A DNA stretch of 41,340 nt from Acidimicrobiaceae bacterium (lineage in GTDB: Bacteria > Actinomycetota > Acidimicrobiia > Acidimicrobiales > RAAP-2): contig PKZN01000084.1 in the NCBI GenBank assembly GCA_003133075.1, forward strand, positions 36,827 through 78,166, in the 5' to 3' direction. Positions 30,201 through 36,074 of this stretch are shown here, in pieces. The translations under genes were made by a program, and so were the position numbers. Under the pieces are notes generated by a model, which searched no databases, was not told the DNA's origin, and was given only the letters and a program-made list of their open reading frames with translations. Each line of letters starts with the position of its first letter. Position 1 is the stretch's first letter.

Positions 30201-31120
30201 GCGCCACTCGGGTCCTCGTCACCGGCGCTAACGGGCAAGTCGGCGTCGACGTCGACGACGTCCTTCGCGGCGCGACGCCGCTCGGTGGTGACGTCTCCTT
30301 CCAACCCGACGACCTCGCCGTGGGTGAAGGCGAATTCGAGGTGCTCGGACTCACCCACCACGATCTCGACGTCACTGACCGTGACGCCGTGGTGCGCGCG
30401 CTTCGCGCCACTCGTCCGGCGGTCGTCATCCACCTCGCCGCCTACACCGCGGTGGACCGCGCCGAAAGCGACGCGGAGCGGTGCTACTTGGTCAATGAGT
30501 TCGGCACCGCGAACGTGTCACTCGCCGCAAACGACGTCGGGGCCCACCTCATCGCGGTGTCGACCGACTACGTCTTTGACGGCACGAAGGGCGCGGCCTA
30601 CGTGGAGGGCGACGCCACCAACCCTCTCAACGTCTACGGTGCCTCGAAGCGCGCGGGCGAAGTGGCCTGTGCCCCTGGCGACACGATCGTACGGACGTCC
30701 TGGGTAATGGGCGTTCGTGGCGCGAGCGTCATCCACACGATCGCCGATCGAGCGACGTCGGGCGCGAGTGTGCGCTTCGTGAACGACCAGACCGGCACGG
30801 TGACGGTTGCGAGCGATTTGGCGAGGTCGCTCGTGACCTTGGCGAGGGAGCGGCCGGGGGGTCTCTGGCACGTTGCCAATAGCGGTGCCACCACCTGGTA
30901 CGAAGTCGCGGCCTTCGTGGGTGGGTTGCTCGGCCGTGACGAGGACTTCGCCACGCCCATTGAGTCACGCGAACTCGCCCCCTTCCAGAGCGCGCGGCGG
31001 CCCACGCGCAGCGACCTCGACACCAACAAGTTCGCCGAGCGGTGGCGGTCGCTACCGGAGTGGCGCGAGGCGCTCACTCGGTTGATCCAGGGTCGCGACG
31101 CGCGCGAGGTGCCCTCGTGA
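30197..31120 (+). CDS. rfbD: dTDP-4-dehydrorhamnose reductase
   Basis: TGANGQVG, AAYTAVD, STDYVFDG, YGASK, DQ. Confidence 0.93.
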   Translation: MSATRVLVTGANGQVGVDVDDVLRGATPLGGDVSFQPDDLAVGEGEFEVLGLTHHDLDVTDRDAVVRALRATRPAVVIHLAAYTAVDRAESDAERCYLVNEFGTANVSLAANDVGAHLIAVSTDYVFDGTKGAAYVEGDATNPLNVYGASKRAGEVACAPGDTIVRTSWVMGVRGASVIHTIADRATSGASVRFVNDQTGTVTVASDLARSLVTLARERPGGLWHVANSGATTWYEVAAFVGGLLGRDEDFATPIESRELAPFQSARRPTRSDLDTNKFAERWRSLPEWREALTRLIQGRDAREVPS

Positions 31121-31956
31121 GGGACGTGGGTGCGAGTGTGGTCGCGGTCGTCGTTGACTATCACGCCGATCTCGTGCTGGTTGCGTGCGTGGACTCGCTG
31201 TTTTCGAATGATCTTCGTCACGTGGTGGTGGTGGAGAATGGCGACGCTGGTTCGGTGCCCGCGACGTTGCTCGATCGGGGCGTCGTCGTCGTCTCGCCCG
31301 GCGTCAACCTCGGTTACGGCGGGGGAGTGAACCGTGGCGTCGCCGTCGCGCCACCGAGTGAGTTCATCCTCGTCTCCAATCCCGACATCATCGTCCACGA
31401 CCACGCGGTCGACGCCCTCGTCGCGTACCTCGAGGAACACAGCGACGTCGCACTCGTCGGACCCGAAGTGCGTCGACCCGACGGGACGGTCTACCCCTCG
31501 CGACGCGACTTTCCGAACGTCTGGCTCGCGGGACTCCACGCGGTCCTAGAGCCGCTCTGGGCGAAGAACCCCGCGACGGCGCGGTACCGCTCCACCAAGG
31601 CCGACGGCGTCGTCGACTGGGTGTCGGGCGCGTGCTTTTTGGTTCGACGTGACGCCTTCGAGGCGGTCGGCGGGTTCGACGAGCGCTATTTCATGTTCGC
31701 CGAGGAGATGGCGCTGTGCTGGGCGATGCGAGAGCGGGGATTCCTGGTCGCGGGAACGAGCACCGCCGTCGTGACCCACTTAGAAGGCGTCTCTCGGGCG
31801 CGGGCGCCCAGAGCGATGTTGATCGCACATCACCGAAGCGCGTTGCGTTTCGAGGTGCAGACCGCGCGTGGCTGGCGCCGGGCGATGCTACCCCTCGCCA
31901 CGATGGTCTTGAGCGTGCGACTGGTACTGGAACTGCTCGCCCGACCACGCCGCTGA
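31117..31956 (+). CDS. GT2 glycosyltransferase (WbbL-like rhamnosyltransferase)
   Basis: NLGYGGGVN, SNPD, DWVSGACFL, GGFDERYFMFAEE. GTGA overlap with rfbD. Confidence 0.88.
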   Translation: MRDVGASVVAVVVDYHADLVLVACVDSLFSNDLRHVVVVENGDAGSVPATLLDRGVVVVSPGVNLGYGGGVNRGVAVAPPSEFILVSNPDIIVHDHAVDALVAYLEEHSDVALVGPEVRRPDGTVYPSRRDFPNVWLAGLHAVLEPLWAKNPATARYRSTKADGVVDWVSGACFLVRRDAFEAVGGFDERYFMFAEEMALCWAMRERGFLVAGTSTAVVTHLEGVSRARAPRAMLIAHHRSALRFEVQTARGWRRAMLPLATMVLSVRLVLELLARPRR

Positions 31957-31964
31957 CGCACCGG

Positions 31965-31970
31965 TAGAAT
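31965..31970 (+). promoter_or_regulatory. Sigma-A-type -10 box for the ncRNA
   Basis: TAGAAT, 7 nt before the 5' strand of the RNA closing stem. Confidence 0.7.
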
Positions 31971-31977
31971 ATGGGCT

Positions 31978-32209
31978 GGGCTACGAGTGGTCTGTGGTTG
32001 AAAGTCGATGCCAGTCGCGGGCGAAACGACCCACGTAAGGCGTCTTGTCGACGCTGAGCATGGCGCGGTTTAGAAGTAAGTCCTGCCCCGGGACGGCCAC
32101 CCTGGTCATCACGGGAGCCGGTGGGGTGGACTCGATGGGCGCAAGCTCCGCGAGTGCGCGTCGCTGCAGGCGAGTGTGGGGTCAAAGACCAGGTCAGCAC
32201 TCGTAGCCC
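31978..32209 (+). ncRNA. raiA-motif structured RNA
   Basis: Perfect 12-bp closing helix GGGCTACGAGTG/CACTCGTAGCCC. Blocks GTGGTTGAAAGTCGATGCCAGTCGC, CCACGTAA, GAGCATGG, TTAGAAGTAAGTCCTGCC and GCAGGCGAGTGTGGGGTCAAAGACCAGGTCA match my recollection of the raiA RNA consensus. Confidence 0.9.
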
Positions 32210-32248
32210 TATTGAGAACCGGCTCCGACCGGTAGGGTGAAACACGGT

Positions 32249-34942
32249 ATGAGCGTATTTCAGAAGATTTTGAAGGCCGGCGAGGGCAAGCGCGTGCGAG
32301 AGCTCGCGGGGCTGGTTGGGCCCATCAACGACCTCGCCGAGGAGACGGCCGCCCTGAGCGACGTCGAACTGCGCGCCAAGACTGACGAGTTCCGCGCACG
32401 CATCGCCGAGGGCGAGACCCTCGATGACCTCTTGATTGAAGCCTTCGCGGTGGTGCGCGAGGCCGCCACCCGCGTGCTGGGTCAACGCCACTACGACGTC
32501 CAGCTGATGGGCGGGATGGCCCTGCACTTTGGCTGGATCGCCGAAATGAAGACCGGTGAGGGCAAGACGCTCGTTTCGACACTCCCGGTGTACTTAAACG
32601 CCCTGGGTGGCCAGGGTGTGCACGTGGTGACCGTGAACGACTACCTCGCCACCCGTGACGCGAACTGGATGGGCGAATTGCACCGCTTCTTGGGGATTAG
32701 CGTCGGTCGGGTCGGTCCGGACTTACAGGAGTTCGAGGACAAGCGCGCCGCCTACGCCGCGGACGTGACCTACGGCACGAACACCGAATTTGGCTTCGAC
32801 TACCTGCGTGACAACATGGCACGCCGTGCCGAGCACATGGTCCAGCGCGGCCACCACTTCGCCATTGTCGACGAGGTCGACTCAATCCTCATCGACGAAG
32901 CCCGCACCCCGCTGATCATCTCGGGCCCGGCGTCGGACGTGACCAAGCTCTACTACCAGTTCGCCTCCATTGCGCGCTCGCTCACCCGCGACGTCGACTA
33001 CGAGGTCGACGAGGAGAAGAAAACGGTCGTACCCACCGAGTCCGGTATCGAAAAGGTCGAACGTCAGCTCGGGGTCACCAACCTCTACGACGCCGTGGCG
33101 ACGAACTACGTCCATCAACTCGGTCAGGCGCTGCGCGCCAAGGAGCTGTTCCATCGTGACAAGGACTACCTCGTTGACGCCGGCGAGGTGAAGATCGTTG
33201 ATGAGTTCACCGGTCGCACCCTCGAGGGACGCCGTTGGAGCGAGGGCTTGCATCAGGCCGTTGAGGCCAAAGAACGCGTGCGGATCCAAGAAGAGAACCA
33301 CACGTGGGCGACGGTGACCCTGCAGAACTACTTCCGTCTCTACGAGAAGCTCTCGGGCATGACCGGCACCGCCGAGACCGAGGCGGCCGAGTTCGGCAAC
33401 ACCTACGGCCTCTCGGTCGTGCCCATCCCGACGAACAAACCAGCGATCCGCCTGGACCAACCGGACCTCATCTTTAAGACCGAGGCCGCGAAGTTCGCCG
33501 CCATCGTCGAGGACGTGCGCGAGCGCACCGATCTGGGCCAACCGATCCTGCTCGGCACGGCGTCGGTCGAGAAGTCGGAACTACTCTCGCGCGAACTCTC
33601 CAAAGCCGGCATTGCCCACGAGGTCTTGAACGCCAAGCAGCACTTCCGCGAGGCGGAGATCGTGGCCCAGGCCGGGCGCAAGGGTGCCGTCACCGTGGCG
33701 ACCAACATGGCGGGCCGAGGCGTTGACGTCATCCTTGGCGGTAACTTCGAAGGGCTCGCGCACCGCGAGGTCCTCGCCGAGGGTATCGCGGCAAACTCCG
33801 AGGAGTTCGCGCCGGCCTATGAGAAGGCGCTCGCGAAGTGGAAGCCGGTGACCCAGGCCGACGGCGACCAGGTTCGCGCACTCGGCGGGCTCTACGTCTT
33901 GGGTACCGAGCGACACGACTCTCGACGCATCGACAACCAGCTGCGCGGCCGTTCGGGGCGCCAAGGTGACCCCGGTGAAAGCCGCTTCTATCTCTCGCTC
34001 GAGGACGAGTTGTTACGCATTTTCGCGACCGGCGCAGTCTCGTGGGTTATGGACCGAACCATGCCCGAGGACGAGGCGATCGAGGCGAAGATGGTCTCGC
34101 GCGCTATTGAACGCGCCCAGAACACCGTCGAGGCTCGTAACGCCGAGATCCGCAAGGACGTGCTCAAGTACGACGAGGTCATGAACGAGCAGCGCAAGGT
34201 GATCTACAAGCGTCGCCAACAGGTGATTGACGGCGAGGACATCCACGACGCCACCATCGAGCTCATCGAAGAACGACTCACCGAGGTCGTCGATCAACAA
34301 CTCGGCGGCGTGTTCGCCGAAGAGTGGGACCTCAACACGCTGGTCCTAGAGCTCCAGGCGCACTATCCGACCACGCAGAGCGTCGAAAGTCTGAAGCCCT
34401 ACGACGACGTCGATGACGTCGTGGCCCTCGTGGTGGACGAAGCGGTAGCTCTCTACGAGAAGAAGTCCGAGGATCTCCCCGGTGGGCTCGACACCGCGAA
34501 GGATATCGAGCGCGACGTGATGCTTCAGATCCTCGATCAACGATGGCGCGACCACCTCTCGGAGATGGACTACTTGCGAGACGGCATTCACCTGCGTCAA
34601 GTCGCCCAACAAGACCCCCTCACGGCGTGGCAAAAAGAGGGCTACTTGATGTTCGAACACCTGCTCGAGGCGGTGGACGACGACTACGTGCGCTACATCA
34701 CCCACGTCGAAGCCACCGCACCGGTGCTCGCGAGTGAAGACGACGAGGGGCTCGAAGGAGCACTCACCAACGTCGACCAGGTCGCGCCCGGCGCGACGGA
34801 GTTACCCGCGCACGTGGCGCCGGCGGCGGGGATCGCCACCGCCTCTTCCAAGCCCGCGCCCGCGCGCGAGAAGCTCGGTCGAAACGACCCCTGCTGGTGT
34901 GGCTCCAAGCGTAAATTCAAGCAGTGCCATGGCCGACCCTAA
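32249..34942 (+). CDS. secA: Preprotein translocase subunit SecA
   Basis: [49 protein letters not shown]-terminal [10 protein letters not shown]...CH. Confidence 0.98.
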
Positions 34943-36074
34943 AGCGGAAAACGCCCTTCGCCTCGCCCTCGCCTCGATCGAAGAGCTCGAGGCTCGCTGG
35001 GTGGCGGCGCGTGACTACCTCAAAATCGACGCCAGCCGCGCTCGCCACGCGCTCTTGAGCGATCTCGCGGCCGACCCCAACCTCTGGGACGATCAGGACC
35101 ACGCGCGAGAGGTCACGACCGAACTCGGCCGGCTCAACAACGACCTCGAGTCCTTTGACGCGCTTCGTCGTGCGCTTGACGACGCGGTAGTGCTCGCGGA
35201 GTTCGCGGCTGAATCACTCGGCGCCGGTGAGGTCGACCAGTCGACCTTCGCCGAACTCGCCAGTGCGGTCGAGGACCTCGGTCACGCCATTGCCGCCCTC
35301 GAGACCCAGAGCCTCTTCAGCGGCCAGTACGACGAGAACGACGCGATCGTCGAACTCCACGCGGGCGCGGGGGGCACCGACGCGCAGGACTGGACCGAGA
35401 TGCTGCTGCGTATGTACTCACGCTGGGCGGAGCGTCGCGGCTTCGCGGTGGAGGTCGACGAAGCCACCGAGGGTCAAGAGGCCGGTCTGCTCTCTTCGAC
35501 CTTCATCGTCAAGGGTCGCTTCGCTTACGGGTGGCTCTCGGTCGAGCGCGGGGTGCACCGACTGGTGCGTATCAGTCCTTTCGACTCCCAGGCGCGTCGC
35601 CAAACCAGCTTCGCCAGCCTCGAGGTCACGCCGTTGCTCGAGGACAGTGCGGGCGAAGTGGAGATCGACGAGAAGGAACTTCGCGTCGACACGTACCGAT
35701 CCTCGGGCGCCGGTGGTCAACACGTGAACAAGACCGACTCAGCCATACGTATCACGCACCTACCGAGCGGCATCGTCGTGAGCTGTCAGAATGAACGCTC
35801 CCAACATCAAAATCGTGCTCGAGCGATGCAGATCCTCGAAGCGAAACTCGCCGAGCGCGCCCGGGCCCAGCGTCGAGCCGAGATGGACGCGTTGAGTGGT
35901 CAGCGCAGCGACAACGCCTGGGGATCGCAGATTCGTAGTTACGTCCAAGCGCCCTACCAACTTGTCAAGGACCACCGCAGTGACTTTGAGACCGGCAACG
36001 TCGAAGCGGTGCTCGACGGCGACCTCGATGGATTCATGGAAGCCGAGCTCCGACGTCAGCGTTCGGCATCATAA
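34929..36074 (+). CDS. prfB: Peptide chain release factor 2
   Basis: SPF anticodon-mimic motif (RISPFD), [11 protein letters not shown]. Confidence 0.96.

What the first reader, a model, noticed from the sequence alone, without database searches (positions are those of the whole stretch)
31978..32209. raiA-motif large structured RNA with its own promoter, directly upstream of secA and without a raiA gene
Seen: the ~290-bp gap between the GT2 gene and secA folds into a multi-helix RNA. Pairings are 31978-31989/32198-32209 (12 bp perfect), GGTCT 31989-31993/AGACC 32186-32190, GTGG/CCAC, GTCG/CGAC, hairpin GGCGTC 32039/GACGCT 32050, CCTGC 32082/GCAGG 32166, and a GCAA-tetraloop arm at 32130-32155. 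TAGAAT at 31965-31970 places the start site at the first base of the closing helix. Known: the linker sequences match, from memory, the raiA motif RNA of Bacillota and Actinomycetota. That RNA is highly conserved, its biochemical function is unknown, and it usually lies near comF/raiA(hpf)/secA. Inference: here comF and raiA are absent while the RNA remains next to secA. This argues against a dedicated cis-regulator of raiA and for a free-standing RNA, or one tied to secA/prfB.
Basis: partly seen in the sequence, partly recalled or inferred. Interest (0 to 1): 0.85.

Follow-up and report, generated by a model that had tools for sequence, protein, structure and literature searches.

The report
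raiA RNA outlives its hibernation gene
This is a copy of the raiA-motif RNA, a known bacterial non-coding RNA of still unexplained biochemistry, which here likely has its own promoter and likely acts as a free-standing molecule; the ribosome-hibernation gene it was named after is not found in nearly all genomes of this bacterial genus, so the RNA likely does not work through that protein.

Summary
Confirmed: a full-length raiA-motif (ModT) RNA, Rfam RF03072, 152.7 bits against a cut-off of 101.3, with every core helix and both pseudoknots of the published structure. A TANNNT -10 box lies 5-10 nt before P1 in 39 of 39 loci (background 0.8%). secA has its own conserved -10 box (62 of 64 starts), also where hpf intervenes or the RNA is missing, so a secA-leader role is unlikely. 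Trans action, abundance and RNA-secA adjacency without raiA are already published. Not found in print in my searches: HPF/RaiA is not found genome-wide in 192 of 194 genomes of this Acidimicrobiales genus (the two hits are a likely chimeric and a likely contaminant contig), while the RNA is in 80 of 81 high-quality genomes. Across the order, RNA and HPF occur independently (37/18/65/30, odds ratio 0.95), which argues against both dependence on HPF and replacement of it. Metatranscriptome contigs hint at a discrete RNA. A word search of this scan's notes found no earlier report of it. Verdict: new member of a known family, with a modest comparative point. Interest 0.3.

The parts
31965..31970 (+). 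Predicted -10 box (TAGAAT) of the RNA's own promoter; start site inferred at 31977-31978
   Evidence: TANNNT 5-10 nt before P1 in 39 of 39 loci; genome background 0.8%; TANNNT peaks 6-7 nt before ATG codons genome-wide. The sigma-70 scan finds nothing because there is no -35 consensus.
31978..32209 (+). raiA-motif (ModT) RNA, 232 nt, subtype without P2 and with P7 plus a shortened P8
   Evidence: RF03072 31981-32206, 152.7 bits, E 2.7e-38; 99.7% of 1399 cells paired over 37 core pairs in 38 homologues, 5 pairs with two-sided change, 0 of 500 shuffles as high
31978..31999 (+). P1 5' strand: P1a 31978-89 with 32198-209; GU bulge; P1b 31992-94 with 32195-97; P1c 31995-98 with 32188-91
   Evidence: P1a 11-12 of 12 pairs in 37 of 39 loci with varying sequence
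32004..32034 (+). Core: P3a 32004-07/32027-30, P3b 32010-12/32020-22, PK1 loop 32014-19, P4 5' strand 32031-34 (with 32176-79)
   Evidence: P3a, P3b and P4 invariant in 38 of 38 rows; PK1 shows a G-C to A-U change in 14 rows
32039..32080 (+). P5 hairpin 32039-55, PK2 32061-62 (with 32183-84), PK1 3' strand 32064-69, conserved UUAGAAGUAA linker
   Evidence: mapped on the structure described in PMC12968392
32082..32170 (+). P6 (32082-86/32166-70), P7 (32087-32115, predicted), P8 (32120-32165, predicted; about 18 nt shorter than the usual form in the genus, GCAA tetraloop, no canonical E-loop)
   Evidence: local folds and alignment
32233..32238 (+). Predicted -10 box (TAGGGT) of secA's own promoter, 10 nt before the ATG
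   Evidence: TANNNT 7-10 nt before 62 of 64 distinct secA starts, background 0.5%; middle positions vary as in a -10 box; also present in relatives without the RNA
32249..34942 (+). secA (ATG at 32249; the longer GTG start at 32237 is not conserved)
   Evidence: NF009538 and TIGR00963 over cut-off; starts aligned
31042..31956 (+). GT2-type glycosyltransferase downstream of rmlD, in the place where comF lies in relatives
34929..36074 (+). prfB in one reading frame (likely ATG 34929, overlapping the end of secA), followed by ftsE and ftsX
   Evidence: TIGR00020 over cut-off; sequence

Best explanation
This is a raiA-motif (ModT) RNA gene, likely transcribed from its own -10 promoter into a discrete ~232-nt RNA that is predicted to fold into the family's double-pseudoknot core and likely acts in trans, while its position next to secA is likely a relic of losing the hpf gene that lay between them. 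Shown here: family membership, conserved core pairs, two separate conserved -10 boxes, the order RNA-hpf-secA in relatives, and hpf and comF not found in the genus. Taken from the literature on Clostridia: abundance, stability, action in trans, an effect on the transition to stationary phase, and micromolar binding to KhpA-KhpB. Inferred: start at 31977-78, 3' end at the base of P1 by trimming or factor-dependent termination (no intrinsic terminator found), and the biochemical step. For that step I commit to a stable ribonucleoprotein scaffold that presents its fixed-length P1 arm and conserved core to a partner other than HPF and so tunes the growth-phase transition (about 40% for this step alone).
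For: Rfam hit; covariation; -10 box in 39 of 39 loci and in 25 of 25 further loci that my pattern anchored, of 30 fetched; secA -10 in 62 of 64. RNA directly followed by hpf in 8 of 8 hpf-bearing family loci; secA follows in 22 of 23 genus loci. HPF in 2 of 194 genus genomes, both suspect; RNA in 139 of 150, 80 of 81 high-quality. Order-wide independence from HPF. Error-free RNA-library contigs across the variable P7/P8 region in two studies (a hint only). KhpA-type KH gene over cut-off in 5 of 5 genomes. PMC10861870, PMC11706538, PMC12968392.
Against: No transcript end, strand or level is shown: only assembled contigs were available, and one contig at depth 6.6 crosses from the RNA into secA, so read-through is possible. 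No intrinsic terminator, and only 39 nt separate P1 from the secA start. All functional data come from Clostridia. KhpA-KhpB binding is weak and non-specific. P8 here lacks the canonical E-loop. Genomes are MAGs, and the PF02482 genome search did not count an hpf fragment cut by a contig end (L077), so a very diverged or fragmented HPF could be missed.
Confidence: 0.8

Rival explanations
1. Same free-standing RNA, but its biochemical step is catalysis: a trans-acting ribozyme, for example in tRNA/rRNA turnover.
For: Invariant core in 38 of 38 rows. Soares et al. favour a ribozyme; tRNA and 5S levels rise in the C. difficile mutant.
Against: No self-processing seen in vitro; no activity reported in the passages read; nothing in this locus points to a substrate.
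Confidence: 0.3
2. A cis element (leader or riboswitch) that now controls secA-prfB-ftsEX in this lineage.
For: secA follows in 22 of 23 genus loci and in other hpf-less genera; 39 nt gap; no intrinsic terminator; a low-depth contig crosses the junction; Rfam still types the family as cis-regulatory.
Against: secA's own -10 in 62 of 64 starts, including relatives with hpf in between or no RNA. One family locus has a large unrelated ORF after the RNA (L066). No expression platform is conserved in the spacer. Deleting the RNA left flanking mRNAs largely unchanged in C. acetobutylicum.
Confidence: 0.07
3. The RNA is itself a ribosome-dormancy factor that lets this genus do without HPF.
For: HPF not credibly found in 194 genomes, no credible RafH, three Balon-related Pfam families in 0 of 5 genomes, while the RNA is kept in 80 of 81 good genomes. 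Gene neighbours are translation-related.
Against: No negative association across the order: 37 both, 18 RNA only, 65 HPF only, 30 neither, odds ratio 0.95. Two family genera lack both. In C. difficile the long form declines in stationary phase in some media.
Confidence: 0.06
4. Partner or regulator of HPF/RaiA or of comF, left here as a decaying relic.
For: RNA directly upstream of hpf in 8 of 8 hpf-bearing family loci and downstream of comF in several other families.
Against: Intact core and high scores across a 194-species genus without either gene; 65 of 150 order genomes have HPF without the RNA.
Confidence: 0.02

Closest known systems
raiA motif RNA / ModT (Rfam RF03072; Soares 2024 PMC10861870; Lence 2024 PMC11706538)
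   Same: Full-length model match, all core helices, both pseudoknots, single copy, own housekeeping-type -10 box, the secA-prfB neighbourhood; Acidimicrobiia are named as carriers in Soares 2024.
   Different: Neither comF upstream nor raiA downstream, and neither found elsewhere in the genomes of the genus; an rmlD-GT2 pair lies upstream; host is an uncultured acidimicrobial lineage, whereas function was tested only in spore-forming Clostridia.
Ca-raiA subtype (no P2, with P7-P8) of He et al. 2026, PMC12968392
   Same: GAA(A)-type J1, GU and GGU bulges in P1, A-rich P3 internal loop, PK1 of six pairs, PK2.
   Different: P8 is about 18 nt shorter than the genus norm and has no canonical AGUA/GAA E-loop; some members of the same genus lack P8 altogether (174-181 nt hits).
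Peptostreptococcaceae-type loci in Soares Dataset S1 (rows 28-30: ComF, RNA, SecA)
   Same: RNA directly upstream of secA with no raiA within ten genes.
   Different: Those keep comF; whether they hold hpf elsewhere was not examined by me. The family name is my recollection, not given in the rows.

Membership tests
raiA motif RNA (RF03072) | Covariance-model score above the gathering threshold over the full model | tested here: met
   152.7 against 101.3 bits, model 1-209
raiA motif RNA (RF03072) | P1 in three parts with GU and GGU bulges and a fixed-length P1a | tested here: met
raiA motif RNA (RF03072) | Core P3a/P3b, P4, PK1, PK2 | tested here: met
   All pairs form in the window; 99.7% paired in 38 homologues. 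Most core pairs are invariant, so covariation supports mainly P5 and PK1.
raiA motif RNA (RF03072) | Single copy per genome | tested here: met
   One match in the assembly; one full match in each of 136 genus genomes over cut-off
raiA motif RNA (RF03072) | Independent, abundant transcript | tested here: inconclusive
   Conserved -10; RNA-library contigs cover the RNA, but contigs cannot show ends, strand or level
raiA motif RNA (RF03072) | Action in trans on growth-phase transition | not testable with these tools
   Shown only in Clostridia
raiA motif RNA (RF03072) | Common but not defining: comFC upstream (74%), raiA downstream (66%), E-loop in P8 | tested here: not met
   these are optional in the family
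Riboswitch or cis leader of secA | Shares one transcript with the downstream gene and has an expression platform | tested here: not met
   Separate conserved secA -10; no terminator; spacer not conserved apart from the -10. Read-through is not excluded.

The most novel reading that the evidence does not exclude
The raiA RNA is itself a ribosome-dormancy factor, and this 194-species peat and soil genus, in which no HPF, RafH or tested Balon-family protein is found, hibernates its ribosomes with an RNA instead of a protein.
Probability: 0.06. Interest if true: 0.85.

Novelty: new member of a known kind. Interest (0 to 1): 0.3.

Why it matters
The biochemical job of the raiA RNA is an open question, and its name and usual neighbours point at ribosome hibernation. 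This lineage is a natural knockout: it keeps the RNA almost universally while HPF and comF are not found, and across the order the RNA and HPF vary independently. That removes HPF and ComF from the list of required partners and narrows the search to genes shared by Clostridia and these small-genome acidimicrobia. It also marks a large genus with no recognisable hibernation factor. It does not reveal the mechanism, and trans action was already established.

Tried and rejected
Plain folding energy: not significant. Sigma-70 promoter and terminator scan: 0 and 0. GGTCT/AGACC helix: rejected for the published register. Diverged hpf in the own assembly: a profile built from relatives' HPF and RafH-type proteins, all filters off, best E 0.79 (the first try, used a wrong frame and is void). 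A family HPF against 5 near-complete genus genomes gave best E 0.012, with stops. RafH-type alignment across 194 genomes: 2 hits, one on the suspect contig and one marginal at E 8e-4, not followed up. comF: only the short PRTase motif in the genus, except G024, a dprA-linked gene in another setting. Balon-related PF18844, PF18854, PF18845: 0 of 5 each; other baeRF families and RMF were not searched. SecA tree of 47 rows: hpf-bearing family rows form one supported clade, but the backbone is open and the root arbitrary, so the number of hpf losses cannot be told. Sequencing runs: 6 of 20 listed were laid. X2, X3, X4 and X6 cover only conserved parts or other organisms' variants at the RNA; 30500-31250 has no cover in 4 runs, which proves nothing; no separate silent stretch was laid. 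Adapter-bearing contig ends at 32209 in X1 and X2 are suggestive but cannot fix a 3' end. Literature searches with no paper: hibernation + hpf + Acidimicrobiia; RAAP-2 + Acidimicrobiales + peat. Scan notes: two unrelated orphan inserts near hpf, not used.

Full report
Observation. The 292-bp interval between a GT2 glycosyltransferase (stop 31956) and secA (ATG 32249) holds a full-length match to Rfam RF03072 at 31981-32206: 152.7 bits against a gathering score of 101.3, E 2.7e-38, the only Rfam hit in the window and the only copy in the 79%-complete assembly. Mapping the structure described by He et al. 2026 (PMC12968392, parts 1-4 of 6 read) gives P1a-c, P3a, P3b, P4, P5, P6 and both pseudoknots. 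On 38 homologues (39 fetched, the chimeric L028 left out) 99.7% of 1399 cells pair, 5 of 37 pairs change on both sides, 0 of 500 shuffles reach this, and slid controls pair 30-49%. Most core pairs never vary, so covariation speaks mainly for P5 and PK1; the measure 'further pair types' was below the shuffles. P1a, counted apart with the best of six registers and G-U allowed, has 12 of 12 pairs in 26, 11 in 11, 10 in 1 and 9 in 1 of 39 loci. Folding energy alone is unremarkable (z -1.55). The RNA has no P2, has P7, and has a P8 about 18 nt shorter than the genus norm, without a canonical E-loop.

Promoters. The sigma-70 scan finds neither promoter nor terminator. A TANNNT hexamer lies 5-10 nt before P1 in 39 of 39 loci and in 25 of 25 further loci that my pattern anchored, of 30 fetched, against 0.8% of random positions. 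A second TANNNT, TAGGGT at 32233-38, lies 10 nt before the secA ATG. It is 7-10 nt before 62 of 64 distinct secA starts (background 0.5%), including relatives where hpf lies between RNA and secA and relatives without the RNA. Relatives are not independent, but the middle letters vary while spacing holds. secA therefore likely has its own promoter.

Expression. Of 20 runs listed, six peat or permafrost RNA libraries were laid, all as assembled contigs. X1 holds a contig over 31991-32192 and X5 one over 32020-32193, both without mismatch across the variable P7/P8 region, with word depths 972 and 867; X1 contigs that cross the 5' and 3' edges have depths 3 and 6.6. The other four cover conserved parts only. 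Contigs cannot show ends, strand or level, and depth includes words shared with kin, so this is a hint of a discrete RNA, not proof. The contig crossing into secA leaves read-through open.

Lineage and gene loss. Record titles of close relatives read Acidimicrobiales or Acidimicrobiaceae, uncultured. In other families the order is often comF-RNA-hpf; in 8 of 8 hpf-bearing loci of the same family the RNA is directly followed by a short hpf, with secA next in 7. In the genus, secA follows the RNA in 22 of 23 loci. PF02482 matches 2 of 194 genus genomes, 1 of 110 high-quality; the C-terminal HPF domain matches 0 of 25. Both hits are suspect. G018's contig appears to switch organism inside the RNA: P1a 9 of 12, 5' half 92-97% like the genus, 3' half best matching other families at 82-87%, GC 0.64 to 0.71, and its secA on another contig's edge. 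G184's hit is on a 45.7% GC stretch against 64.8% at its secA locus, among unrelated genes. A profile from relatives finds nothing in the own assembly (best E 0.79), nor does a RafH-type alignment. Full-length comF is not found in 24 of 25 genus genomes. The RNA is in 139 of 150 genus genomes and 80 of 81 high-quality ones. In the family, HPF-domain hits occur in 102 of 301 genomes and the RNA in 135 of 150; several genera keep the RNA without HPF, and two lack both. In one draw of 150 order genomes: 37 both, 18 RNA only, 65 HPF only, 30 neither, odds ratio 0.95 (kin are not independent, so no p-value is claimed). Limits: these are mostly MAGs, the search did not count one hpf fragment cut by a contig end (L077), and only three Balon-related families were tried, in 5 genomes.

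Mechanism. Most likely the locus is a free-standing RNA gene between two independent transcription units, left beside secA when hpf was deleted and comF was lost or displaced. Its action is inferred from Clostridia: abundant, stable, rescued in trans, needed for normal entry into stationary-phase programmes (PMC10861870, parts 1-3 of 7 read; PMC11706538, passages). For the biochemical step I favour a stable RNP scaffold (about 40%) over a ribozyme (about 30%): the RNA sediments as an RNP and binds KhpA-KhpB, weakly, and a KhpA-type gene is present in 5 of 5 genomes tested. Neither dependence on HPF nor replacement of HPF fits the order-wide counts.

What is known and what is new. Soares 2024 already reports raiA downstream in only 66% and comFC upstream in 74% of 887 genomes, names secA and prfB as neighbours and Acidimicrobiia as carriers, and rejects a cis role. 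C. acetobutylicum and C. difficile have other downstream genes. In their Dataset S1, 3 of the 12 secA rows I saw, of 587 occurrences, have secA at +1 without raiA within ten genes; the rest of that file and the alignments were not read and may include this lineage. I found no paper on genome-wide absence of HPF in RNA-bearing lineages in six searches; the library lacks most subscription papers. PMC10901736 (Balon) was seen as passages and PMC5737381 as a listing only. A word search of this scan's notes returned two unrelated inserts.

Verdict. A real, well-formed member of a known RNA family. The lineage-wide absence of HPF is a useful constraint on an open question, but not a mechanism. New member of a known kind; interest 0.3.

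Noticed in passing
L028 (G018:C116) and probably L077 (G288:C130): Contigs that seem to switch organism inside the raiA RNA: the P1 arms mismatch, GC steps up, and an hpf gene appears. The conserved RNA may be a hotspot for chimeric assembly, which would bias gene-neighbour counts from MAGs.
   Followed up: partly
L041 (G184:C5): HPF on a 45.7% GC stretch with unrelated genes in a genome whose secA locus is 65% GC; likely a contaminant contig.
   Followed up: partly
L050-L057: RafH-type hibernation factors (E 1.6e-49 to PDB 8whx_w for L053) scattered in other genera of the family, away from the RNA locus.
   Followed up: partly
family genera g29 and g41: Both the RNA (0 of 9, 0 of 2) and HPF are not found; useful for finding genes lost together with the RNA.
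   Followed up: no
L024, L029, L030, L059: Short forms (174-181 nt) without P8 occur in the same genus as 243-245 nt forms and the 226 nt hit of the window; P8 is labile while the core is invariant.
   Followed up: partly
L066 (G229:C64): RNA followed by a long repetitive open frame instead of secA.
   Followed up: no
L058:681-2464 (G024): A dprA-like gene paired with a ComF-like phosphoribosyltransferase, apart from the usual comF locus; names are by my reading of the sequences.
   Followed up: no
window 34929-36074: prfB is one uninterrupted frame whose likely ATG overlaps the end of secA by 14 nt.
   Followed up: no
whole assembly: TANNNT peaks 6-7 nt before ATG codons, suggesting many leaderless mRNAs in this organism.
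   Followed up: no
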